A stretch of 63,955 nt of DNA, the filler included, from Intoshia linei (lineage: Eukaryota; Animalia; Orthonectida), in NCBI GenBank assembly GCA_001642005.1. It is 12 parts of 12 records of this genome, joined end to end, with 100 filler letters (N's around TTAATTAATTAA, not from the genome) between each part and the next. Parts side by side here need not be neighbours in the genome. Positions count along the whole stretch, not along the records: positions 1 to 11,919 come from LWCA01001128.1; 11 more parts are not named here. One strand, written 5' to 3'. The position numbers and the translations under genes are program-made. The notes beneath the pieces were generated by a model that had not been told where the DNA came from, ran no database searches, and worked only from the letters and a program-made list of their open reading frames with translations. How positions within the stretch are numbered: position 1 is the stretch's first letter; every line of letters starts with the position of its first letter. Positions 1 through 52,704 of this stretch are shown here, one piece after another.

Positions 1-2
1 GG

Positions 3-480
3 TTTATCTATCCAAATTTTTTGTTATTTGTGCATACTGTTATGAATACTGAAATAGCTAATGGTTAAATGGGAAAAACGTCTAGAAACGGATTTTCATT
101 TAATAAATGTTAGCAGACTAAGTCTGGGGATCCGTCGACAGCGTTTATGAATACAATTTACAATATGGTTTATTGTATTAATATATTCTGTAATAATGAT
201 GTTAACGGATTAATGTTAATGGGCGATGACAGTTTACTGATTCTAAAAAATACCCTCAACGATCCATTTCTTATTACAAGAACATTTTATACCCAATTGA
301 ATTTACAGTTAAGTTGTTGGAACCTGCGCATGCATATTTTTGTGGCAATTACCTCATACATGTAAACAATATCTATAGATTTTTGCCAGATCCATTGAAA
401 AGAATAGAGAAACTAAGAGATTCGTATATTACAAATTACGATAAATTAGCCGAAACTAAATTAGTCGAAAGTGATAAATA
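3..480 (+). pseudogene. Endogenous viral element: decayed RdRp fragment of an alphavirus-supergroup (virga-like/Martellivirales) +ssRNA virus
   Basis: Frame 3 reads *QTKSGDPSTAFMNTIYNM (motif B; SG at 123-128) then LMLMGDDSLL (motif C; GDD at 222-230). After a frameshift near 303-310 it reads VKLLEPAHAYFCGNYLIHVNNIYRFLPDPLKRIEKL. Motif order and spacing match the tobamovirus-type QRKSGDxxT..GNT / GDDSLL / YFCG / DPLK-KL pattern. Stops at 66-68 and 111-113; no introns; runs off the left edge. Confidence 0.88.
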
Positions 481-1278
481 ATTTCAATAAATGAGGATCA
501 ATGATAAAAATATGACAGGATATATCAATATGAAATGCGAAATGCAATTTTTTTTGCAAACGATACGTAGTGCCATATAGCCCGTGTTACCTCTCAAACG
601 CTCTGGAATTGAAATTTTATATTTACAATAAATAGTTATGATATTCAAGAATATGCTTTTTTTAATGCCTAATTTGGTAAAATAAAGTCATAAATTTTAG
701 AAAAATTTCAACGCCACCCCTCAAAGAGGGTTATTGTGTATGATAAATTTGGCACTGCCCTAATTTTCACTGCACATTATTCAAATTTTTCCAATGTACA
801 AATTACTTTTTACACCATCGTTTCAATAATGTGAAATAATTATGCAGAAAAAATACGCTCATATAATGACGAATATGCTCAATATAATTTATTTAAAATA
901 TAAACCTGATATCGGACAATTAATTGCCACACTAAACCCAATATAATTGATTTATTTCCATTTACTATATCCAACACATTGATATTTACCATCTTGTTCT
1001 ACATAATTTATTAACATAAATATAAGTAAAAAGTAATGTATCAATGTTAAAAATTAAAATGACTATTATTAATGAGTAATAATATTTGCTACCACAATAA
1101 ATACAGTACAGTCGCAAAGTGGGGTACAAAATATTTTGAAATTTTTTTTACAAATAAATTTTACTGAGTAACTTTTTTTCAAACAAATAATACTTCGTAA
1201 TATAAAAAAAATCATAGTTCAAATTTTTAAAAAATTAATGCTTAAACTAAATTTATAAGAGTAAATTAATTAAAAATA

Positions 1279-1422
1279 CAGTAAGACCTCTTAATACCGC
1301 CATTTTGGTATTTCTATATTAATAGCGGTATTGAGAGTATAACGTGGTAGCGAATAGATCATGGATACGTTTATATGGTAAAATAATAATAAATATAGTG
1401 GCGGTATTGAGAGATCTAATTG
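1279..1422. mobile_element. Tc1/mariner-type MITE
   Basis: ~24-bp imperfect TIRs (CAGTAAGACCTCTTAATACCGCCA / TGGCGGTATTGAGAGATCTAATTG) flanked by TA on both sides. Confidence 0.75.
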
Positions 1423-2147
1423 TAATAGGATCACATAAATATTTGGTTCCATATACAACCCAATCAAACCTGATATAAAAAATTGAAGATAAACTTGCTA
1501 TATTGAAATACAATGTATCTACATCGTAATTCTTATATAATTGGACAGAAATTAACATCAAACATTTCTAGTGGTTAATATTATTAATTATGATAATTTT
1601 AATCCAAAATTATTTAAATGTTATAAATTACTTTATTTTTATCTAAAAATTCTAAAAACACGGATACATTTGAAATGTAGTGAACTCTCGTCATTTTCTT
1701 TTTGTTAATGATAGGCTAAAATCATAAATAATTAAAAAGGTATAAATATATTCCAATTCAAGATAAGGCATTTTTTTGCAATAATAAACAGAAAATAAAA
1801 ATTTCAAGTCAGAAATTTTAATCTTTCAGTCAAAAACGTGTATTACCATTTTAATAGACAGTTTTGCAAAAGAAAAATTAAAATTGAAATAAAAAAGATG
1901 GTACTTTTTTTCCCACTATAAAGTACAATTTTGTATCTAAATTTCAATCTCTGAAATTAAAATTTTATTTAATCATTACATTTTGTATCATTAATTTAAA
2001 TATTTTTGTAACTATCGATTTTCAAATTTAATTTAAATATAAATTTATTATATTTTAATCATTTATTAACATGTAAAAAAGATTATTTATATTTTTAATT
2101 TTTTCAAATTTCGTTAACATAGAATTAGACTTATGATATAATATAAA

Positions 2148-2529
2148 AACTTACTCATGGTGGAAACAGTTACGGTTTTTGCGCAGTACAAAACGGACTA
2201 GCCAGTTAAAGAAATTAAAATAATTTACCAAATTTGCATTAGCTATTCCATTCATTAAAGATAATAAAATAATCCCATCCCTTAAATCGTGAGATATGTT
2301 TTGTATATATAATGGAGAATTGGCCTAAGAAACATAAACACCTAAAAATAAAAAATTCCAACTTGTACTAAACGAAAATTGATCCACTTTGTAAAAGTTT
2401 TAGATTGCGTTTTCTCTTGAGAACCTAATTTTACAATTTTAAATTTAAAAAAATTTTCCAAAATTTGAAATTACCGACCAACTGGTTAATCGTATTTTGC
2501 ATATTACTGTGTTTTTCCATAAATAAGTT
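2148..2529. repeat. Degenerate inverted-repeat element (probable MITE)
   Basis: AACTTACTCATGG...CCAGTT at 2148-2206 is roughly the reverse complement of AACTGG...CCATAAATAAGTT at 2481-2529. Confidence 0.45.
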
Positions 2530-3155
2530 AAAATTGAAATAAATATAGACCAACTATTTACTTTAGGTATTTGTTTTATAAAATTTATAAAAATTCAGAA
2601 ACAAATAAAATTTAAAAACATGTGTGCTTGTTATAAACTGAGAAATCGATACATTGGTTATCTATTATAGAATTATAAATAATTTACGTGTTTCTTTAAA
2701 ATTTAATTTAATTACACATTATCAATTTTTGAATTTTAATTCGTTTGTAATTTATAGATTTCTGGAACATTCCATATTTTGGACAATGTTAAACATACAT
2801 TTTAATTTTGATATTGTGGGTGTCTTCAATTCATTTATTTTAATGGTACCATTTTTAGGTTTATTGTTTTGCTTTCTATACGTTAATATCGTTGATTACC
2901 AATTTGTAGAAAATTTCACTGGAAATATTTTACATTTATAAACAAATTTATCTTGTAAAATTAAAATTTACGACTTTATTGTTAACAATTCAATTGAATC
3001 AATAATCAATATATTTATATAATCTCACAACACCAGGATTAATAATTATTGTTATTGTTCATTTTATTTTAACCAGTGTACAACAAATGTTTTTACATGA
3101 ATCTACAATGTATGTATTTCAAATGGTAAGCAATATTTATCAAAATTAATTTAAA

Positions 3156-5689: not shown

Positions 5690-6850
5690 ATAGGACGAGA
5701 GCTCCACTATATGAATTTTTAAAAGAAAAATGGTAGAGTGATCGACTGCAGCCTATTTACCTTAATACTGATGACATGAACAATGTCGCACTTATAGATG
5801 ATTCAACTACCGTAAAAATCTCCAAACCCCAAATGGGGAAGTAAATCATAAAATATTTTGGGATGGAAAAAACGGTATTTATAAAATAAAAAAAGAAGTA
5901 TCAACAATGGCTACTTCGTCATTTTATGCAATGTTCTCTCAGCCAATGGGGTTGGTAGTGAGCATAACTATAAAATGTAAAAAAAATTATAAGTCATATT
6001 TAACTACTTACAAAAAGAAAATGATGCAAATCTGATCAGTAGTGAATTAAACTGGAGCATACTACTTGAGTCAGGATATTTAGGATCTTCTTCTGATACT
6101 CCTGAGATATTAAAAATAGCAATGCCACGACCTTCGCAGTGTGTTACCATTACTGAAAAAACCAACCTAAAAAATATGGCTATAAAACGTGTACCAGTAG
6201 AGCAATTCTTTGGAAAACTTAAAAAATCCTTCAAGGTATTGTTTTTTTATTTTTAAAACTGACTTAATTAAGCTTTTTTCCATAGGGTGACAATTTAAAT
6301 TTTTCAAAGATAGCCACTATTTTTTGTAAACTTTGTTCTGGATCTTATATATTTTCGAATAGAAAATTTTTTATTTTTTGTTGGATTGTTAGACGTTTTT
6401 ATCAAACAAAAATTTAGATCAAAATTCTTTCATTTTTCTTAGCCCTGAAAAATTTTATGGACTATATTATTTAGTTTTATAGTGTAAAAATTATAATTTG
6501 TCCACGAGTGCGTATAAATAGAAGTAACTAGATTATTCTATGTTTATTCTTAACTTTAGATATTATCTGGTGTTTATACATACGAGTCATAATCAATCGA
6601 CAGAATTTATTTTGACATTGACTTCGATATATATGTACTATTAACGAATGAATTAATATCAAGAAACGTCTAAAATGAAATGGATCATACGTATGAAATC
6701 AGACTCATGTCTATCAGAAAAGATTGAGAACGAGAAAAAACGTTGAAGTGTAAACAATCTGCTGATCGATACCGGGAAAGATCTTCTATGAGAAATGAAT
6801 TGGATAATTCATTATCCAGTCAATATAATGACATTATGTATTACATTTTA
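5690..6850 (+). mobile_element. Decayed PIF/Harbinger-like DDE transposase with a spliceosomal intron
   Basis: Fragments DSTTVKISKP, WDGKNGIYKIKKEV, WSILLESGYLG, KRVPVEQFFGKLKKSFK | intron 6236-6559 (GT..AG) | ILSGVYTY..FDIDFDI..LLTNELI. Many stops. A close second copy lies at 51570-52360. Confidence 0.7.
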
Positions 6851-7525
6851 TTGTGAATCATTATTATTGTATTGCATTATTCGTATATTCTAAAAAAAGT
6901 TTTACTGCATATATCTATAATAAAATCTGTGGTCATTTTATATATTTATATCACATAGTCTTTCTCTAAAAGTCTACGGTTTACTGTCCTTATCAAATTA
7001 TAAATGCATTTTTGATCTAGTTTTGACACAATTTCGTTAAAACTCTATTTTCAATTAGATCTGCTCTTTGATTTGTTGATTTTTTTCTTTTTAAATTATT
7101 TAATTCTGGAGCTTTTCTAAATAAAATGTATCTGCTATTTTTTTAACTCCAATTCTAATTTTCAATCAGAAAACATGCTCTGTTCCCTCTCATACCCCCA
7201 TAGATTATATAATAAATTTCATGTTGTGTATATTTTAAAAAAATTTTTTTTTTTATTTACAAAACTGTATGATTAAAATGTTAATAACTATTGTCTGGCT
7301 GTATAACATTTTGTTATAATAATAAAAATACTTTTTAAACAGTACATCTAAGTGAAACTCAATAACACTGGGTTTAACTCAGTGAGTTATCAACAGCTTA
7401 AATTGTAATTGTCAACTTAACTATAGTTTCAAAAGTTGCATAAATATGACAATATGATATCAATTCGATGCTGGTTACAAAAAATGAATTTGAATTGATA
7501 TAAATAAAGTTATTTGAGTTATTGA

Positions 7526-10500
7526 ATGACTGCAAATATTTATGATTTTACAGTTGACGATATTGGCGGAAATGCTGTCTGTCTTGATAAATACAGAGGC
7601 AACGTGGTTTTAGTGGTTAATGTAGCCTCTGAATGAGGGTTAACAAAAAGCAATTATCAATTTTTACAGTCTTTATACGAAACAAATAAAGATAAAAATT
7701 TTTCTATTATCGCTTTTCCGTGCAACCAGTTTGGTGGACAGGTTTTTATTTTTTTTTTTTTAATATTTTATATAATCAAGCTTTATATTAGGAACCATTG
7801 TCAAATCCAGAAATTCTTAAGTTTGCTACGGATAAATTTCAAGTTACTTTTGATTTATTTTCCAAAATTGATGTAAACGGAAAGAATGCTTCTCCTTTAT
7901 GGAAATACCTGCAAATCAAGTTGACTGGATTTATTACCAAGTACTATATATTTTATTGTAATATAGTGGTCATCAATCGCAGATCCCTGCGGTTATACTT
8001 AATGTGCGTTACCTTTCACGCATTTATGTATATTTTTAGTTCGATTAAATGGAATTTCACTAAATTCTTAATAGATCGAAATGGTGTTCCTTTGAAACGA
8101 TACGGACCTAAGGATAATTTGAAAGTTTGTTATTGATATTTTTATAACTTAATTCTTCCACTGTCTGTAATGTATTTTTTAATTACCTATTTGAAAATGT
8201 ATGAAAATAAAAGAATAAACGTTTTCAAAATTATGCTGTATATAGTATAGAATACATAGACGGTGAAAGGGTTAAATAATATTTTACAATGTGTGATAGT
8301 TTAAAAGAGGTTGAGAATTACTGATCTATACTCTAAAACAGGGGTTCCCATACTCATTTTATCTACCACCCCTTTTTAGCAATATATTTTGTCACAACTA
8401 TATTAAAGTGCAATTTCGCTAAGTGCAAGTGAAATTTTTCATAAAACTTTCACTTTGGCGATGAATAAATTGTGATTATATTACACTAAGCAACATTTTA
8501 ACACTTAAAAAAATTTCTCTTAGCTTTTATTTTTAAATGATAAACCGAGTTGCAAAATGTATATTCTGAAAGAAAAGGATAAATCTGTCTGCTAGTTACC
8601 GAAATAATATCACATTAATATTGATTTATAAAGAGGATAATTGGATTTCTTATATCATTAAGCGAACTATTTTGGGTATACTAGACATGTAAATAACTAT
8701 TATATTCCAATGCATACATTTGATAAATAACCTTATCAACACAATGCGATAAAGCGAATAACCTTACAAACACAATACATAAAGCGGGCTACTTTATGAA
8801 CTAGTTACAATATTTCAAATTATGCCGAATTAACGACGCAATAAAGAAAACATTATTGCTTTTCTAAGTTTCTAAAATTTATTAGAAAGTAATGTATTTA
8901 TATACAACATTGCATATATGACAATATATAAAATAGTAACATTACATACATACATACAATTGAACTAAGAGAGAATTAAATCCATATATGCCTTGATCGA
9001 TTTTAATTTAAATAAAAAAATTAAAACTTAAATTTTGTAAATATTTTACCATCATGATGAAAAGGCGACGAAGAACAAGATGAAATGCTAAGATCGCTGC
9101 TAATTCGATATTTTTTTCTCCTTTTATATCTCCTTATATATGCTAATTTATATAATCGACATTAAAATGCGATATATCATATCGATAGGTATGAGAAAAT
9201 ATACTAAATGATTTTTTTAAGCGTCCAAAAAATCTTTCCACGCAGCTTTATATTTTCTTAAACCTAAAGTGTCTGAATTCGGTCCCATATATTCAGAGTC
9301 GAGAATCGTACTCCATCTCGTATCACTTTCTTCGTCTGTTTCCTCAATTGGAAGCTTTTTCAGGTAGCTAAGATAACTTGAGTTAACTTAACCTTAGTAA
9401 TGAGTGTTTAATATCTTTAGATGTATAAAGATGTGTACCCATAAAGAAGCTTGTTATTTTTTTACTGGTTAAACTTTTAACTCCCATTGCATCTGAGTAT
9501 CTTTTGTCGAGATCCATCATGTAATCAATATTCCTCTCATCATTTTTATGTGACAAGAAATAAACGGGATCCAATTCCTTATGAGGACACAGGAGTTGGT
9601 ATTTATTTATGGCTATTAATGTGTGTGCGCTTTTAACACTTGACATAAGAATCAGCTTCTTTTTTGTCAACTCTCATGTTACGTAAAATTGTATGTTGAT
9701 GCCTGGCTTCTCTACCAATATGTCACAATGTCTCGTCATAGAAGGCTCAAATATAACTCTGTGAAGCACATATCTAGCTAAGGCCAAGCTTGCAGTTTGA
9801 TGATATATCATGGAGGGAAAATTCGAGGAAGTTTTAGGAGCAATGCTAGAAGTAACCCAATGTAGACAAGATACCTGTAATACAACTGGATCACACAAAA
9901 GTTTATATGAATAGAATGGAGTTCTAGACAAACCTACTTTTCGGCATACATTTAAAGGATGTGCTAATCTGGCGTACTTCGAAATAAAAACACTATAAAA
10001 CCCGCGATCATGCTTCCATCTAGTGCAAGCTAGTACACTTCACCTCTAATAGCATTGACTACAGGAAAATTGTGTGATATCATCCTGGTATTTAGTACAC
10101 TTAGACATGTTTCCTTGAATTCCTCTTTTTCCAGTGGTATTTTGCCTTCAAGTCTTCCAACTCCTTTTAATTTATTTGCCAAACCGGCTCTGTTCAGCCT
10201 TATTCTTTCACCTGACTTCCCAATGTTATTTCCATAAAAAATTAAGAACGTCAATATTTTATTTATTATAAAATGTCATAATTTTAGTTTTTTCTTTGCA
10301 TTTTCATTGAAATACATGATATCTTGCTATCAAATTGATAATTTTTTTAAGCTTTGGACAGTGCGAAGTTAAGTGTTATTATTATTAGATGACCTGGAAT
10401 GGTTGAAAAAACTGGCCTATTTTTGTAGAGTTAAATTAAGGTGCTAATTGTCTTTTATTTGTTATAATGGTACCACTAAATGTTTATTTTCCCAAACATT

Positions 10501-13320: not shown

Positions 13321-18611
<5,291 letters not shown>

Positions 18612-21534: not shown

Positions 21535-24500
21535 ATGGATTATGGTGTAATTAATATATATTTGTTATTGTCTAGATTTGTTTTTATATTTTTTTAGAGT
21601 TTTATAGAGTTTCCTATAACAAGAAGCATTTTATGGCATACGAAAGCAGTCAATCCTGAAGATTCTCCTCAATTAATTTATAATCATGACTTTTTACTTG
21701 AAATGGATTACAGATTACTACGAAATATTGGTAGACTTTCTTCACGTCTTAAAAACAATGACAATTATGAAGAAGTTATTTTAATGTCCTCCGTTGAATA
21801 TGATAATGGTAATCATTTGACACTGTTGGGTTCAAGGTTCTGTCCGTTTCTAGAAACAGACTAGCTATATGTTTTTAATTTGGTACAAACAGTATATACT
21901 AAATTTATATAGCTTTATATAACTATATAGCTATCGAGGGAACGTTGTGAGGAGTGAAAATTTTTAATTTTAGTAAACATTAGGGTGCTTCAAAATTTTA
22001 TCATTGGTTACAACTTTAGGTCAAACATTTTTGAATTTTGATCAAGAACAGTTAATTCGAAAAATACATTCCCTTACGAAAAAAAACGAAATCGGTTAAT
22101 ATTTATATTAATATTGAAATTCATACAAAAATGTTAAGATAAATATAACTTAATTGATTAACTAACTAATTTGGTTTATGTGGATACTTATGTTGGTAAT
22201 TCCTTTGATGGATTTACCATACTTTGTGGATCATTTTGGTTTTTTGAATTCATTTCTAGCTCATTTATTTTGGTTTTTAATGATGGAATTCCTAATAATT
22301 AACCCCAAAAACTACACATAAATTTTGTTATAAACTAAAAATGAATTTCGTAAAAATCAAAATAAATGAACTAAAATTTAATTTCAAAAAACAAAATGGT
22401 CCACGATACATGTTTAACCCATCAAGTTTGAAAAGAGGATTTTAGGTGATTTTATAGAGGTTCCAGTTTTTTAATTTTAATTTTATTTACGAAAATAAGA
22501 GGTGTAGAGTTTTAAAAACACCGATTTATAATACAGTTTTTCAAGGATTTGATTTCAGAAATTTAGTCTATCAGGGTAACAAACCATAATTATCCTTTTT
22601 TTTTAAATTAAACGAGACCTAGAATTTTTTAAAATCATGAACATTATAAATTTCAATTTCAAAAACGTATCTTCATGGTTAAATCGTCAAATTACTCATT
22701 CTAACTTATATAAAAGTCTATACATTTATTTGTGTGTATTATCATTGTTTTATAAAATTAAAAAAACTTAATAAGCCCAGAATTTAAAAAAGATGACATT
22801 TAATACAGCTTTTTGCAGTTAAAATATATAAAAAATGTCAATGTTAAGTTATGCTTTCATGTTCAAAAAAGCAATTTACTGTTTACCATTTTTTTGGGGA
22901 AATTATTTAATTAAAACAAAAAATTTGATATAATTAATGGTCCTAGAATTTAAAAATAAAAAATAATCTTGAAACAATTGGGAACCATTCCTTTAAAAGA
23001 TTGGTAATAGTGTATAGTTGAATTTTTATGTAAGATTTTATTTTTTTGGTAGAATTAAAAAGGTCCGATCTAGGTAGAGCTAGGTGCTGTTTGTACGAAG
23101 TAGAAAACAGTCAAAGTATTTATATTTTTTTTCGTGGTTTAAAAGACAATTAAAAACCACACTTTTAAAAAATAGCGGAATAATTGATTTTGATGATTTT
23201 TTGTATACTAATTGGAAAACTCACTTGGTGAGTACTGCTGGACAATACATCAGTTGTTAAAATAATTAAAATTTGTCTAAATTTATATATATGAAATATA
23301 TGAAAATATTTATATATTTTTTCATCATACTAAAATATTAAAACCCTGGGAGGTCGTCGTAGAAACATGATTTGTAGGAGGGTATGCTCATTATTGTAGT
23401 GTTACCATGGAAATTTCGTGTTTTTGATAGTGATAGGGTAAAAATTCAGCATCACGGAATTACTGTAATAGACAATTTATTTTAATTTAAACAATTACAT
23501 AAAACGATATATAATTAAAATAATGATTAATAATCATAATCACAGATATTTCATAATCATTGATTATTATTTTTTGATTTATATTTTTTATTCGTGGTTT
23601 AAAACACGATTAAAAACCATACTTTGAAAAAATAGCGGAATAATTGATTTTGATGATTTTTTGTATACTACTTCTAAAGATTTCTAAGATTTTTATCAAG
23701 CTACTTTATTTATATAAACAAATACAATTCATTGAAAAGTGTACAAAAAATTGCTTAATATTTTTTCCTTTAATTAAAAAAATGATGAGATACCAAAAAA
23801 TTAAGACTATAAATGTATTATTATAAAATTGTAATAATTTTTAGAAGCCAATCGAATTAAAATAATAATGGATAGAATGGAAGTAGCACCATATATTGAT
23901 GATATGTATCTTTCAGAAAATGACCTTGTACCACCCGATGTTTACTTTAAATGTTCAATCAAAAAGACTTCGAACGTTGATCAAATGAAAGATTTTGCCC
24001 TTCAAGAACTGTTGAATAATTGTTCAGGTCAAGCTTTCAGAGGAAATTCACATAATTACTTGATTGCATCGAAAGGACGAATAATCTTTCATAAAACATT
24101 TGAAGAAGGGTTAAATAGAGATATTAATTCATTTCACATAGATTTTTACTTAATTGCACCTCGAACCATATTTTCACTCGTAAAAATACTATCACCCACA
24201 ATTGTTACAACCCCGCTCAGTAAGAGTTTGCTAAGTCCTAGTCAATGCGTTAGATATGGATATCTGAGCATGGACAAATCTCGTAATATTATTATGCTGA
24301 TGAGTGAAGATATACGGACAAAAGAGGTTCCACTGGTTGGTGTATGGGTGTGTGGAGTTAAATCGTTACAAGATTGCTTTGTTTGGAACATATTTTTGAA
24401 ATATTGGTATTCTCTCAATATTAAAAAGGCAAATAAGACTAATTTTTTATTACTATTAACTCTGGCAGACAAGTCAATAACGTTTTACGACGTTAAATTA

Positions 24501-27500
24501 AAAGACCCTGCCGAATCTCATGATTTAAAGTTTTCATTATATTCTTGTCACACTATTGTTAATGTTAATATGGTAAAGTGTTCATATGTTAACTTGAAAA
24601 CAGACTTTAGAACGAATGATAAAGAAACACTTGATATTCCTTTTGTTCCATTTAAGAATACCTTTTCCAAGTCTCAAACCGGGAATGATTTGGATGAATT
24701 TCATTACAATTCTAGCCAATTTATTTTTTCAGACTTAATGAAGAAGCTTAATGTTTTTCCACCGAAAAAAATTGAAAAACCATCAAACATTCCATATTTA
24801 ACATCTCGAATCTTACCATGTGAGTCCACCAATTCAATATCAAAAAAATCTTCATTTTATAGACTTTTTGGTGAATGTGAGCCTGTTAATGTTTCCTTTC
24901 CTAGGCGAGATGTTTCTGCTTTTATTGATGATATACACTCTACTATTTGTGAAAGTGAAACTAATTTAAAACTTAAAATGAAAAATGTCAATATTCAAGA
25001 TAATGATAATGAAAATTCAACGCTTTCTCATAAAAATGCCATCACACAACCAATTATTTCTGATCAGTGCGACCAAGAAAAAGCATTAGATCTTTCTTAT
25101 AAGGGTAAACTTGAAAACTCTGAGAAAGCAAACAGCTTATCTAGTTTCAGCAAGGGTGAATCTGTAGCATCTGTTGATAATTATAAAAAATATTTAGAAG
25201 ATAAGATTGATTCGATGGAAGCTACAATGGTAGAATTATTTAATAGGCATTCTCAACAGGTTTCAGATTTAAAAAGTCAAGTTGATGAAATTCATTTAAT
25301 TCAAAAAAAATATTTTAAAAATCTTTGCCGTGTTTGTAAACACAAGTTACATTCCACCGCTAAAGTCGATGATGTTGATGCTAATTATGATAAACAGAAT
25401 GGTGATTCTGATAGTGATTGTCTTGATTCGAACAAAGAACGTTTATTTGATTCTGAAGGCATTTTAAAACTTGAAAACAAAATTGAGAAAATGTGGGATT
25501 TTTATGCTCAACATAGTTCTAAAAACATCAGTCCAAATTCAAGGTTTTTTCATTTTTATAATTTTTCATCAATTCGTTATTTGTTGTTTCTAATTATATA
25601 TTCATTTAGTTCCGAAAATTGGAAGTTTAAACAACTTGATAATATTACCCAGCAGGTACGCTTATTAAATCCCATTGATGATACGTTAATATGTCTACAT
25701 ATCTTTATCTATATATGTACATTGTACATCGGCTAGCTCTACCGAGGGTCGACTTTTCAATTTATTAAACAATGATTGTGACCTTAACAACAGTCACATT
25801 ATACTTACAATAAAATATCTAATAAATCTTCATAAAAAAATCAGGGATCTTGGATTTTTCCATTTTTTAAAAAGTTTAATTTATGATTTTTTAACTGTGA
25901 AGGTACCATTTTTGAGAGTGAAATATTATTTTATTTTGTGCACTGGAAAAAACTGATTGAAAATTTCTATTTTTTAAGTTTCTGTGACCCAGGTTTCTAA
26001 ATAAATGATTACACACAGAGTCTGTGTATCAGACTAAACTCATTTTTACAAGCTAGAAAAATTTCACAAGGTCCATAAAAATATTAAAAATTAATTAAAT
26101 TCATAGTCCTATAATTTAAATAAATATATAATTCCAATACAATTTTTTTCCATTTGATACTGTAAAAAATCTAGCCTCACAAATTTGATTCGTCCCCGTC
26201 AAAAAGATATTTTAATTATTTTACTAACCAAAAACTTGTATTTTGAAAACTAATTACACATTTAGATATAATTTTTAACTTGATAATTCAAAATTATAGG
26301 TTTCTATCTCAGAAGTTTACCTTTTCTTTTTTATTAAGGGGAATAGAAGCTGTAATTTACATGAATTCATATCTTTTAAGGGGTCTAATGTAGTTTTAAA
26401 TTTAAGAGGTAGTTTTATATACAATTGATATGTATGATTTATAATCACGTTAAATATAAATCTAATTACAACTGCAGCTAAATATTGATTTTATACATAA
26501 CATTAAAATTGAATACTTTATAATTGTTTCTAAGAAATTGAATGAATGGTTTTTTATTGGCGATTTTTAATTTCAAATTGGAATAATGTTTGATTTGATT
26601 TTTTTAATCGAATAATAAATTAAAAATCAATAGATGTGTAATTTTTGTGTTGTTTTTTTAAATTTTATTCAATTATTCTTAATCTTTTGCAATTGTGTTT
26701 TTCAAGTTTTTAAAATTTTTCTTCCTACACCGATGAGTAAAATTTAATAAAATTGCAGATTATTGTTAGTATTGAACCACATTTTTAGCGTTTAAGTCTC
26801 AAGTTAATTATAATGAGAATGACGGATCTAATAATTTTGGTTTCTCGGTATATTTTGAATTTTCAAAATAGTTTAATTACCGCAAATTTTTTATTTCTTC
26901 ATTGTCTGGCTCACTGAGAAAAATTATATATTTATAAAAAATACATTTTAAAATAAAATATACGACGTCCATTCTCTAGAGCAGTGATTCCCGAATCAAA
27001 TAGTGTACGGACCTCATTTTAAAAAATATTGGAAAAATGGGATTTTTCCATTAAGGGTTCGTAAAACTGAATTTTTATTTTAGGATTGGATTAAGAGGTT
27101 TTTCTAATAAGATTTGGTAAAATTGTTTTTTTCATAAAAATATTGGAAAAAGAGGAACTTTCCCTTAAGCGTTGATAAATATGAATTTTTCCACTGCGTT
27201 TAATCAAATTAGTCACAAAATTTTAATTTTTTATATTGTAAGTGGATTTTTCAAAAAAAATATCTGAAAACTCTAAGGATTTGAAATGGTATTTTTTATT
27301 AATAGTATTAATGGAAAATCTGTAATATTAAAAATTCCTCTATAAAAATAAAAAAAAAATTAGGCAGATAGTTTTGGATCCTCAACCTGGAACCACTGCT
27401 CTAGAGCGATGTGTTGTTGGTGTGATACAACTTTGAGCCACATAATCAGCGATCTTACTAATTTATCATATTATTGACTTTTTCACGAAATTTGGTAGGG

Positions 27501-30399: not shown

Positions 30400-33232
30400 T
30401 TACATATCACTATCGCTTTTTAATACCAAACGAATCATTCATTAGTACCTGACAAAAATTCATTCAAATTCAAAAATTAATTGGAAAAAACAGGATACTC
30501 GTAGCTACATAATTTAGTTTATTGCAGACCAACACAATTGACTTAAATCTTAAGTTAAAATGACTTGTGATTCACGTGTGACGATCTTGATTAAAATAAA
30601 AAGTCAATTCGTATTTAATTTAGTAAATCGTTATATTTCATAACAGAACAGAATACAAAACAGGTAATTCACCAATATGAAATTAAATTAAAATTCTAAT
30701 TCATTTAAAAAAAAAGTTTGGGGTTTGGCCGTGAACGAGCCAAATTTTGAATTTGATATTTCTAGGACCCTCAGTTTTCTCAGTAAATGGTTACACACAG
30801 ACTGATGCAACTTTAGCACATTTGACTCTATATTAGTAAATACACGTATAAAGATTACCTGTGTTGAAATAGATTGCAAACCATTCAAAATTATTTCAAT
30901 ATTCACATTAAACAAATACGAAACAATCATAATCAGGCGTTCATCTTGTAAATTCATAATTTTGATACATTTTTTTAGTATTGAAAGACAATTGATATTG
31001 CTAAACATGCCCTCAACATTTTTATCAGTTAAGTTTATAGGCTGTGCACATTTCCAGAATTTTTTTGGAAATCTTTTTTCCATATTTATAAATTTAGTTC
31101 GAGTCATAATAATACGGTGAAATTGTTGTATCGCTCCTATTTAAATTAAATTAATTTTTTTATAAAATTCTAAGAAATTTTATTTTTAAATAAAAACTAA
31201 TATGGGATTTTGACTATGAAAAAGCACTCTTTGAAATTTGCGATTTATGATAATGCTTATGATTGAGAGCTATTTTAAAAGCTATTAAAATTAAGTTTTA
31301 TAAAATTTTAAGACTTATTTCATTTTTAAAACAAATATTAATTGTGGTTTTGGCCATGAATATGTGTAAGTGTCTGTAGCTGAGATTTACGACAATGTTA
31401 ATGATTTTAAAACACATATTTTTAAAAAAGGGGGAATTGGGTTTTTAACCCTGAAGGATCCAATTTCTGAAAATGTCACACTCGAAAAACTGTACTAGAA
31501 ATTTGTGTTTTTGAAATTTTGGACTGTTCATTTTTTAAATAAACGGAAACAGACATTCAAATGTATAATTAAAGTAAAGGATAAAATTTACCCAAAAAAT
31601 TAATTTAAATTTCATAATAGAATCATTTTTAGGCAAAAAATACAAACACAAAACGCATTTTTACTTTGAAACACATGTAATAATAGATTAAAACAAAATA
31701 AAACGAAAATAACCTCTTTGTAAAACTTTAATCCCGATAGATTCCTTTTTAACCGAATCACTCATCGGATAAAAGTCACACCTGTAAAAATACAAATATA
31801 TTAATTAATTTAAAAAAATTACTTTAACATGTCAAAAACAAAACGATGATGAAATTGATTGAAACTAAAATTATTAATCCATGACAGAAACTGACATTCA
31901 AATATACCAATATATCTAAAAATTATATAATTTAAAAAGAAAAGATATTACAGATAAACCTCGTTTATTATCATAATGACCATTAAATTACCTTAAAATA
32001 AAGACGGTACAAAGAACAGACAATATGCATTCATATTCAGAATTAAATTGAAACTGACAAACAAAATTACAATTAAATAGTGCAACAGATTTTTCAATGT
32101 CTAGAATAAGTGCATAAAATATTATAATATTAAAATGAAAATTTAAAAAAAATATACCAAATGGAAAATTAAGAATTTGTAATACTTTTTTCATATAAGA
32201 AATTGAAAATTTTTTTAATTTTTCATGATAATTTTTAAAATTAAATTTTTGGTACAAATGATAAATTTTATGTTGAATGGAATAGATATTAACCTTGGGC
32301 TAAAATGAAAATATAGAAATGTAATACATGTGCGAAAAACGTACCCCATGAAGAGATAAAACAATTCCAGAATGTTTAAAATTAATTAAACAGAAATTGC
32401 TAAATTCCAGAAAAACATTGTAATATGGAATTACTTTTAAATCAATATATTTAAAAATTTCTGAAATAGACAGGCTGGCACCATGAATAAATAAAGACAC
32501 GTATATAATTTGAATTATAAAAAAAGGCGTCAGTGCATTTTGATTATTATAATCAGTATTCGTATACTGTAATTTCTTTCGTTTTCTACTGGATTTTTCA
32601 CATATATTAACACTTTTTAAATATTTAAATTCATTAATTTCATTGGATTTATTGAACAACGGGAGTGAAAAATATGGAATTAAAAGTGACATTTCATTCG
32701 GTAATTTTATTTTTTCTTCAGAATCCATGCATGCAGATTTCCAAACTGATTTTACTGTATTCTATTTGATGAAGAATAAATTAAATTTATAAATCAAATT
32801 CAATTTTACCGGAAAATCTGGAATGTTAAAAACACAGGTAATGGATTCGGTCATTCGATGCTATATTGTACAATTTTAATAATGATGTAATTAGATTATT
32901 ATAATTTAAAAAAATTCATAAAAATCAAATTACCCGAATTACAAACAACAAAAGTACCATTTACACAACAAGAAAAAGTACAATGTGTAAATAATTAATA
33001 TTACCAAATAATAGGTTAAAGCTGTCTTGATATCCATATTATGCATACAATTCGTTTCGATCGATGAGTTTTGATTATCAGAGCGTGGTTTTAAGAAATT
33101 TTGGTTTATTGGTATTTTTAAATCAGATTCCATTTTGACAAAATTTGGACAAATAACAAAACATTTTTGACAATAGCGTAACTCATTAATAATATCGAAG
33201 GATTCATGTTGACAGTAATGGCACTTGTCCAT
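30400..33232 (-). CDS. TAF1B: TAF1B/Rrn7-like RNA polymerase I initiation factor (multi-exon)
   Basis: N-terminal zinc ribbon CHYCQHESFDIINELRYCQKC, and the cyclin-fold segment LTPFFIIQIIYVSLFIHGASLSISEIFKYIDLKVIPYYNVF typical of TAF1B. About nine GT-AG-bounded exons, ending VLMNDSFGIKSDSDM* (TAA 30402-30400). Confidence 0.72.
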
Positions 33233-33593
33233 TGCAGTATTAAGATTAACGTTCCAAGTTAAAGGTGACTATATAAACATAATGGAAAAAGTGTAAAAGA
33301 GGAATAGTGTAGTCCACCGTAATATAGTTTATATACATTTAAATTGAAATTCACTTTATGTAACAAATCACCTACACGTTAAGCAATTTGAATATAACTA
33401 TACTTTAATCATTACAGTACGATTACAAATTGTAATGATATAATTAAAGCACGTGATTATTTCATAAATGCAAAAAAATATTGCACCTTTCAATATTGAT
33501 TTTGAAATGTAAGTTTTTAAGGTTTACATTATTTTGTAGCTTAATAAATTAGAATTATTTTCCGTCTCGATTCAAATTGACATCAAATTTTAT

Positions 33594-33827
33594 ATGAATT
33601 GTGAAAATTGTGGATCTGGAAATTTTGATTTGGTAGACGGAATGCAATATTGTTCGGAATGTTTTCAACAGTCTCAAAATTTTAAATCTACCATTATTGA
33701 TACACAGTGTGATGAAACTACTTTTAATGTAACTACAGATCAGTCCATTTTAATCAGAAGAATTAAAGAAAAAAAGAAATTTATTTACAATGATCTATCA
33801 ATGATTCAAATTTTTACTTATTATTTG
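33594..33827 (+). CDS. First exon of a second TAF1B/Rrn7-like gene (truncated, or continuing beyond the gap)
   Basis: MNCENCGSGNFDLVDGMQYCSECFQQSQNF is a zf-RRN7-like ribbon. The exon ends TYYL|gt exactly like the minus-strand paralogue. It is followed by a MITE end and a foldback; no further exon was recognised before the gap at 34978. Confidence 0.65.
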
Positions 33828-33948
33828 GTATATATTTTTTACAATTTAATTTTAAATGTTGACGACGTTTGTATATTATAGACAGGGATTAGAATTAATT
33901 GGTTACAAATTTTTTATACAAATTTATTGAAATTATACTTGAAACTTT

Positions 33949-50960: not shown

Positions 50961-51569
50961 TGTATAACTAAACAAATATGGTCATGAAGTTGGCGTAAAA
51001 CCAAAGGATTGAATGTGAATCAGACGTAGAATAAACTTCACAGTCAGATGATGACAGATATAAGTTGGTAATATTCAAAAATAAATCTAAATATTTTAAA
51101 TTTAGCTTTAGCTAAAAGTTATACCATAATGTATACTCAATCTCTACTATTAAATGTTTAAACGTTTGCTACAAAAATAATACAGTCCGCCCTGGTTTGG
51201 GTCGAACCACGGCAACAACACCCTCGCTTTTTGGGGCAATTTTTCAATATTGTATTAGTTTCATAGTATTATGTATTATATCCTATAAATAAGTGTCAAA
51301 TAAATCTCGTTTTGGGGCACTTTATTTTTGTATCATAAAATCGTTTAAAAATCATAATTATAATGTACTGAGAGAATTTTTCCTAACTATTAATTGTGAC
51401 GAATTATCAAATTACCTTTCTAATTCAAACATAAGTCAATCTATTGTTATAATTTTTCAAACATGGGAAAAAATAACTGGAAACAATTAAAAATTGCTGG
51501 AAAAAGATAAATGAACACCGTAAAAAGACGCATATAACAATTCCTAATATAAAAACTAATTAAATCGAA

Positions 51570-52360
51570 TTATGAATCAAACTGGAGCATACTACTTAAC
51601 TCAGGATATTTAGGACCTTCTGATACTCCTGAGATATCAAAAATAGCAATGCCACGACCTTCGCAGTGTGTTACCGCTAATGAAAAAACCAACCTAAGAA
51701 ATATGGCTCTTAAACGTGTACCAGTAGAGCAATTCTTTGGAAGACTTAAAAAATCCTTCAAGATATTGTTTTTTATTTTTAAAACTCACTTAATTCAGCT
51801 TTTTTTCCATTGGGTGATAATTTAAATTTTTCAACGATAGCCACAATTTTAGGTAAACTTTGTTCTGAATCTTATATATTTTCGAATAGAAAATTTTTTA
51901 TTTTTTTGTTGGATTGTTAGACGTTTTTATATAACAAAAATTTAGATCAAAATTCTTTCATTTTTCTGAGCCCTGAACAATTTTATGTACTATATTGTTT
52001 AGTTTTTTAGTGTAAAAATTATAATTTGTCCACTGGTGCGTATAAATAGAGTAACTAGATTATGCTATGTTTATTTTTAAATTTAGATATTTTCTGGTGT
52101 TAACACATACAACAGAATTCACTTTGACATTAACTTCGATATATGTGTACTATTAACAAATGAATTAATATCAAGAAACGCCTTAAATGAAATGGATCAT
52201 ACGTATGAAATCAGACTCATGTCTATCAGAAAAGATCGAAAACGAGAAAGAACGTTGAAGCGTAAACAATCTGCTGATCGTTACCGGGAAAGATCTTCTA
52301 TGAGAAATGAATTGGATAATTCATTATCCAGTCAATATAGTGACATTATGTATTAAATTT
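51570..52360 (+). mobile_element. Second copy of the intron-containing Harbinger-like transposase
   Basis: Close match to 6050-6850 ([28 protein letters not shown]); the intron donor is mutated to AT. Confidence 0.75.
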
Positions 52361-52704
52361 TATTGTGAACCATTATTATTGTATTGCATTCTTCNTTGAC
52401 TTCGATATATGTGTACTATTAACAAATGAATTAATATCAAGAAACGCCTTAAATGAAATGGATCATACGTATGAAATCAGACTCATGTCTATCAGAAAAA
52501 ATCAAGAACCAAAAAAAACGTTGAAGCGTAAACAATCTGCTGATCTTTACCGGGAAAGATCTTCTATAAGAAATGAATTGGATAATTCATTATCCAGTCA
52601 ATATAGTGACATTATGTATTATCTTTTACATTATCTAAGAGTGCTAGTTATTTCAATAAAGTAGGACAGACAAACAAAAATCGCGTTGCATATTATATAA
52701 GTTA

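What the first reader, a model, noticed from the sequence alone, without database searches (positions are those of the whole stretch)
3..480. Endogenised RdRp of a virga-like positive-strand RNA virus
Seen: QTKSGDPSTAFMNT, MGDDSLL and, after a frameshift, AYFCGNYLIH..PDPLKRIEKL in correct order and spacing, with stops and no introns, contiguous with host genes. Known: these are RdRp motifs B, C and downstream of alphavirus-supergroup (Virgaviridae/negevirus/endornavirus-like) replicases, which have no DNA stage. Inference: a germline-integrated fossil of a probably undescribed RNA virus of this host lineage. The ORF track shows only a 72-aa piece of it.
Basis: partly seen in the sequence, partly recalled or inferred. 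Interest (0 to 1): 0.85.

Follow-up and report, generated by a model that had tools for sequence, protein, structure and literature searches.

The report
RNA-virus polymerase fossil in host intron
A broken piece of an RNA virus's copying-enzyme gene sits in the DNA of a small-genomed, likely animal host, likely inside an intron of a cytoskeleton gene; it is likely a fossil of a past infection by an unnamed distant relative of tobacco-mosaic-type viruses, a known kind of relic.

Summary
Two pieces in different frames (114-299 and 266-478) each pass Pfam's RdRP_2 cut-off, far above shuffles. A separately assembled DNA contig carries the element, a host exon and part of a MITE in one piece, and a run of a second study holds the window's own copy. 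So it is host DNA, not a chimera. It lies antisense to a spliced calponin-homology (actin-binding) gene, probably in its fifth intron. The two copies seen differ, so decay looks polymorphic. The nearest proteins are unnamed environmental RdRps at 39-40% identity. Trees put it with them in an unnamed clade beside tobamo-type viruses, but AU tests do not reject tobamo or kita/nege placement. 'Virga-like Martellivirales' holds; no family can be assigned. The host looks like a compact, fast-evolving animal. My unproven guess is an orthonectid, for which a viral-family RdRP gene is already mentioned in print (PMC6396948). Verdict: a new member of a known kind (non-retroviral endogenous viral element), of modest interest for its host and virus lineage.

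The parts
69..299 (+). Viral RdRp fossil, piece A (frame 3): lead-in, motif B (QTKSGD...NT) and motif C (GDD); in-frame stop just before motif B
   Evidence: (RdRP_2 30.1-34.9 bits)
266..481 (+). Viral RdRp fossil, piece B (frame 2): YFCG and PDPLKRIEKL motifs; homology ends near 454, stop at 479-481
   Evidence: (RdRP_2 42.5 bits)
255..300 (+). Zone of the frameshift between pieces A and B; also present in the X1 copy (no indel listed there)
1..68 (+). Probable further decayed viral sequence; the element probably continues left of the window (the X1 contig holds 512 more bases that were not shown)
   Evidence: inference; no significant profile hit; table 8
442..470 (+). 15-nt tandem duplication at the right end of the viral homology
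546..689 (.). Host dispersed-repeat fragments (546-583, 630-689) that bound the viral part on the right
   Evidence: many other contigs match here and run on unlike
906..998 (-). Inferred exon 5 of the host calponin-homology gene (end of CH1), with AG acceptor and phase-0 GT donor at 905 facing the viral fossil
   Evidence: PDB hits to dystrophin, utrophin, filamin, plectin, alpha-actinin, E 1e-4 to 1e-2
1277..1424 (.). High-copy MITE with 26-nt terminal inverted repeats, in intron 4 of the host gene
1632..2540 (-). Exons 1-4 of the host calponin-homology gene; introns of 50, 38 and 513 nt are seen spliced out in run X2
   Evidence: (table 5, record 13, 0 mismatches)

Best explanation
This is a stop- and frameshift-broken fragment of the RNA polymerase gene of a Martellivirales (virga-like) positive-strand RNA virus lying in host DNA, likely copied in by a host retroelement's reverse transcriptase and likely sitting antisense in an intron of an actin-binding gene as a dead fossil. 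Shown: the RdRP_2 homology, the breaks, physical continuity with a host exon and a MITE, and presence in runs of two studies. Inferred: the retrotranscription route (these viruses have no DNA stage; established knowledge), the intronic position, inheritance through the germline, and loss of protein function. The source virus was probably an unnamed lineage related to the environmental RdRps P0005 and P0007.
For: RdRP_2 above cut-off in two collinear pieces; chance control. X1 record 1 (1941 nt, depth 19.3) covers window 1-1407 in one piece, across the element, the host exon at 906-998 and most of the MITE. X2 (another study and year) holds a 184-nt contig identical to the window over 1-134 and a spliced mRNA of the neighbouring gene with 0 mismatches. 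X1's copy differs from the window by one indel and two substitutions inside the element, so the copies do not share all their breaks; this fits neutral decay of alleles. Transposon relics occur in the same scaffold: integrase, hAT, Tc5 and DDE domains. In 4 of 4 trees the element groups with P0005 and P0007 (SH-aLRT 81-89; bootstrap 98) inside a 19-row clade (97-99).
Against: X1 may be the sample the window was assembled from, so it is not independent biology. Only contigs, no raw read pairs, were available. The X2 contig is short, at depth 3, and ends inside the element, so it does not bridge to host DNA. No target-site duplication, poly(A) tract or retroelement was seen at the right edge, and the left edge is outside the window. 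The splice from exon 4 to exon 5 and onward is not covered by RNA, so the intronic position rests on homology and splice sites. AU tests do not reject grouping with tobamo-type (p 0.26) or kita/nege-type (p 0.24) viruses. The element is a long branch of 111 columns, and the references were gathered with virga-type motifs, without an outgroup.
Confidence: 0.85

Rival explanations
1. The element is functional as RNA. Read antisense as part of the host gene's pre-mRNA, it would supply piRNAs or siRNAs against a still-circulating relative of the virus.
For: Orientation is opposite to the host gene. A run that holds spliced host RNA also holds the element's first 134 bases. EVE-derived antisense piRNAs are reported in arthropods (search listing and abstracts).
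Against: Contigs give neither strand nor level; run X2's kind is not on record and its contig may be carried-over DNA. No small-RNA data were seen and no close living relative was found (best identity 40%). The differences between copies look neutral.
Confidence: 0.12
2. The integration is real, but the donor virus infected another organism (the host's own host, a fungus, an oomycete or a food organism) rather than this lineage.
For: Neighbours in the clade include methyltransferase+RdRp segments without helicase (L134, L142) and a tobamo-like genome (L005). These layouts resemble viviviruses and tobamo-like mycoviruses (PMC7724247 passages; PMC12169780 section 3.1).
Against: Entry into inherited DNA normally needs viral RNA inside the host's own cells. 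The element's own branch is long and its nearest rows have no known host. Luckshill virus of that group came from an insect virome (PMC7724247 passage).
Confidence: 0.2
3. It is an assembly chimera or contaminant sequence joined to a host contig.
For: The scaffold is gappy. The bridging contig's depth (19.3) is 2-4 times that of neighbouring X1 contigs (3.4-11.1). X3 and X4, from the same sample as X1, show no cover.
Against: A separate assembly gives the same junction in one contig. The breaks are those of decaying DNA, not of a live RNA virus. A second study holds the same broken copy. Uneven depth and blanks in small contig sets are not evidence, by the tool's own notes.
Confidence: 0.04

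Closest known systems
Non-retroviral endogenous viral elements of Martellivirales in invertebrates (arthropod virga-like EVEs; PMC12548735 passage; listings)
   Same: A fragment of an RdRP_2 gene in host DNA with stops and a frameshift, among transposon relics.
   Different: The host is a compact-genomed, fast-evolving, probably non-arthropod animal. The virus branches with unnamed environmental RdRps rather than with the nege/kita-type insect viruses in my trees.
Unnamed environmental RdRps P0007 (JGI/IMG, RdRp plus NADAR domain) and P0005 (Logan)
   Same: They share Qx-KSGD-x-STA-xx-NT, GDD, FCG and PDPxKRIE motifs, and are the sister rows in all four trees.
   Different: Only 39-40% identical over 111 columns; they are open reading frames of apparently live viruses; hosts unknown.
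Viral-family RdRP gene reported in the predicted proteome of the orthonectid Intoshia linei (Pinzon et al. 2019, PMC6396948)
   Same: A viral RdRP in a compact mesozoan genome, attributed to horizontal transfer; PF00978 is one of the three families named.
   Different: Their filter required a near-complete domain, while this locus has at most an 83-aa open stretch, so theirs is probably another locus. The figure that assigns family to species could not be seen, and my host identification is unproven.
Viviviruses and tobamo-like mycoviruses (PMC7724247, PMC12169780); Tobamovirus; Kitaviridae (Tomato fruit blotch virus, P0033)
   Same: Same RdRP_2 palm motifs. Clade neighbours have vivivirus-like and tobamo-like layouts.
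   Different: No named member of the first two groups was in the tree. Identity is 34% to the tobamo-type L009 and 36% to P0033.

Membership tests
Non-retroviral endogenous viral element | Homology to a gene of an RNA virus without a DNA stage | tested here: met
   RdRP_2 above cut-off; relatives; alphavirus nsP4 hits for the profile led by P0005
Non-retroviral endogenous viral element | Physically continuous with host DNA | tested here: met
   X1 record 1 spans 1-1407, including a host exon and most of a MITE
Non-retroviral endogenous viral element | Disabling stops or frameshifts | tested here: met
Non-retroviral endogenous viral element | Inherited; present in independent individuals | tested here: inconclusive
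   Seen in runs of 2 studies, but the second is one 184-nt contig at depth 3 without a host junction
Non-retroviral endogenous viral element | Integration footprint (target-site duplication, poly(A), adjacent retroelement) | not testable with these tools
   Left edge outside the window; no genome held; nothing evident at the right edge
Martellivirales (alphavirus supergroup) replicase | RdRP_2 palm with motifs B and C in canonical order and spacing | tested here: met
Martellivirales (alphavirus supergroup) replicase | Motif A, methyltransferase and superfamily-1 helicase upstream | not testable with these tools
   These would lie left of position 1; no other viral piece in the window
Virgaviridae (tobamo-type) | RdRp falls inside the family clade | tested here: inconclusive
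   Outside in 4 of 4 ML trees; AU p 0.26 does not reject inclusion
Kitaviridae / negevirus-type | RdRp falls inside the clade | tested here: inconclusive
   Outside in the trees (drawn; same 19-row set); AU p 0.24. Only P0033 is named; the negevirus label for the 9-12 kb rows is recalled.
Viviviridae (proposed) | RdRp in the vivivirus clade; segmented genome with RdRp apart from helicase | tested here: inconclusive
   Neighbours L134 and L142 have that layout, but no named vivivirus was available and the element sits on another sub-branch
Endornaviridae | RdRp falls inside the family clade | not tested
   No endornavirus reference was fetched; a different motif B in that family is recalled, not shown
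Eukaryotic RNAi RdRP (PF05183) | PF05183 domain with DxDGD | tested here: not met
   No such hit at E up to 10

The most novel reading that the evidence does not exclude
The fossil records an undescribed family-level lineage of Martellivirales, so far known only from environmental RdRps, that infects a highly reduced parasitic animal (probably an orthonectid). The insertion is young enough to be polymorphic and, lying antisense in a transcribed intron, supplies antiviral small RNAs. It would give that phylum its first placed RNA virus and give the orphan clade an animal host.
Probability: 0.15. Interest if true: 0.65.

Novelty: new member of a known kind. Interest (0 to 1): 0.4.

Why it matters
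Endogenous fragments tie orphan RNA-virus lineages to hosts. This one links an unnamed virga-like branch (best identity 40%) to a small-genomed, probably parasitic animal whose viruses are scarcely described. My searches listed no paper on the viruses of such a host, only the one-sentence mention in PMC6396948. As a mechanism it is ordinary.

Tried and rejected
No whole genome is held, so the left edge, motif A and other copies could not be seen. The word-index protein search with piece B gave 0 of 26 candidates. The profile search gave 1 of 7985 at E 1e-10, a kitavirus; both are weak searches. Of 7 hits in the 1.84-billion search, 4 are tandem-repeat artefacts. Related-locus scans of IMG/VR gave one short match (L001, not followed up) and none. 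The motif scan of metagenome contigs gave 0. The Atlas gave only sub-0.9 leads for P0007 and could not read the host Sec23. No RNA holder was listed as such; X3 and X4 show no cover of the element; neither is evidence. Profiles of the RdRp parts before and after the matched stretch found nothing significant. No second CH domain was found in 454-905 on the minus strand (weak for short exons). Exons 1 and 4 alone gave no PDB hit. The host could not be named from sequence: the Sec23 search returned only amoebozoan, fungal and unnamed proteins at 34-46%. Dicyema (GC 36.7%) and myxobolids (median intron 22-27 nt) fit the window worse than an orthonectid (median intron 57 nt). No earlier scan notes exist on this genome or sequence. 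Supplements of PMC12548735 hold none of five candidate host genera. Supplements of the bioRxiv virome paper were not available and may bear on novelty.

Full report
Observation. Frame 3 gives QTKSGDPSTAFMNT from 114 and MGDDSLL downstream, with stops at 66-68 and 111-113. Frame 2 gives AYFCGNYLIH...PDPLKRIEKL up to a stop at 479-481. Each piece alone passes the Pfam RdRP_2 cut-off: 30.1 bits on model 273-324 and 42.5 bits on model 331-383. A profile from 55 relatives scores 48.9 and 46.4 bits, against at most 7.6 in 300 dinucleotide shuffles and 5.4 in 116 other window tiles (the relatives were motif-selected, so this control is partly circular). Spacing matches relatives. Homology is demonstrable from about 69 to 454 only. 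No other viral piece lies in the window.

Is it host DNA? No genome is held. The run search listed 4 runs from 2 studies. In X1, probably DNA, one contig of 1941 nt at depth 19.3 covers window 1-1407 in one piece and runs 512 nt beyond the window start. It thus joins the viral motifs to dispersed host repeats (546-583, 630-689), a host exon (906-998) and most of a MITE (1277-1424). X1 may be the source sample of the assembly, and only contigs were available. Its copy differs from the window by one indel and two substitutions inside the element, so the two copies do not share all breaks; both keep the central frameshift. X2, from another study and year, holds a 184-nt contig at depth 3 identical to the window over 1-134. 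It also holds a contig of the neighbouring gene with three GT-AG introns (513, 38, 50 nt) removed and no mismatch. X2 therefore contains RNA of the same organism and the same broken copy. Contigs cannot show strand or level, and that contig does not reach host DNA. X3 and X4 gave no cover of the element.

Neighbourhood. The spliced gene is on the minus strand and encodes a calponin-homology domain. A fifth exon at 906-998 has an AG acceptor, matching phase and a GT donor. It matches the end of CH1 of dystrophin, utrophin, filamin, plectin and alpha-actinin, with fimbrins on top through their repeated domains. In this family CH1 is followed by CH2 (established knowledge). I found no CH2 between the exon and the element (weak for short exons). 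The gene probably continues left of the window, which puts the fossil antisense in intron 5. This is inferred; RNA does not cover that splice. A nesprin-like identity is a recalled resemblance only.

Host. The window is about 25% G+C. Its introns are 38-50 nt alongside ones of hundreds of bases. It has a TGA-containing peroxidase, STIL, TRIC and many DNA-transposon relics. Sec23 scores better on human than yeast (289 against 232 bits) yet reaches only 46% identity to anything returned. This suggests a compact, fast-evolving animal. Published values fit an orthonectid (median intron 57 nt, PMC6543705 passage) better than Dicyema (GC 36.7%, PMC6736024 passage) or myxobolids (median 22-27 nt, PMC13644364 passages). 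No tool named the host; I put the orthonectid guess at about 60%.

Relatives. The full HMMER search with piece B gave 7 hits at E up to 1e-3. Three are RdRP_2 proteins without a virus name (P0005, P0006, P0007) and four are tandem-repeat artefacts. From 142 loci and 4 proteins, 114 regions passed length filters and 55 remained after dereplication at 72%. Best identity over 111 columns is 40% (P0007). With X at the breaks, the element groups with P0005 and P0007 in all four trees: 98/86 in the careful LG+G4 tree, whose bootstrap had not fully settled; SH-aLRT 86, 81 and 89 in the others. It sits inside a 19-row unnamed clade (100/99) that the drawn trees place next to tobamo-type genomes. That clade includes a methyltransferase-helicase-RdRp-TMV-coat genome and methyltransferase+RdRp contigs without helicase (5 loci scanned). 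These recall tobamo-like mycoviruses and viviviruses (PMC7724247 passages; PMC12169780 abstract and section 3.1). Against over-reading: the branch is long (1.3-2.0), AU tests reject neither tobamo (p 0.26) nor kita/nege (p 0.24) placement, the references were motif-selected, and no togavirus, closterovirus or endornavirus rows were included.

How it most likely arose. Viral RNA in a host cell was reverse-transcribed, likely by a host retroelement, and inserted into an intron, where it is spliced out and decays neutrally (confidence 0.85). Homology, breaks, linkage and presence in two studies are shown. The route, intronic position, inheritance and lack of function are inferred. A small-RNA role, a donor virus from another organism and a chimera are the rivals.

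Known versus new. Martellivirales fossils are common in arthropods (PMC12548735 passage; listings). Pinzon et al. (PMC6396948; passages, section 13, text of supplement 1; figure not visible) state that Intoshia linei has a viral-family RdRP gene, one of PF00680, PF04196 or PF00978, and they required a near-complete domain. If my host guess is right, viral RdRP in this genome is already mentioned, though probably at another locus and without phylogeny. Searches listed no paper describing this element. The cross-phylum virome preprint (10.1101/2023.11.03.565523, passages only, supplements not seen) does not contain the words Martellivirales or virga. The library lacks most subscription papers. 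Earlier scan notes hold nothing on this genome; two unrelated RdRp fossils in other genomes show the kind recurs.

Verdict. Real, correctly interpreted at order level, a new member of a known kind. Interest 0.4, for the unusual host and the unnamed virus branch.

Noticed in passing
window 7526-8136 (+): Glutathione peroxidase gene with an in-frame TGA at the catalytic position (VASE*GLT), so probably a selenoprotein; a 50-nt first intron at 7742-7791. No SECIS search was done.
   Followed up: partly
window 14570-16980: A 2.4-kb stretch inside the Sec23 gene holds an unassigned minus-strand open frame (15749-16033) and other coding-looking pieces; possibly a nested gene or relic.
   Followed up: no
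window 23838-25736 (+): STIL-like centriole gene in one 632-aa open frame (Pfam STIL_N); suggests a ciliated, probably animal host.
   Followed up: partly
window 32942-33881: Two divergent open frames that each carry a zinc-ribbon-like CxxC...CxxC start; one has a weak Rrn7/TAF1B hit. Possibly an inverted duplication.
   Followed up: no
window 11920-62690, eleven places: Scaffold gaps are filled with N44-TTAATTAATTAA-N44, an artificial six-frame stop linker.
   Followed up: yes
P0007: The nearest relative is an RdRP_2 fused to a C-terminal NADAR domain, with a hydrophobic N-terminus and no methyltransferase or helicase hit, on a 3941-nt contig; an unusual layout for this order.
   Followed up: partly
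window 5960-6900 and 51550-52660: Two decayed copies of one DDE_Tnp_4 (Harbinger-like) transposon family.
   Followed up: no
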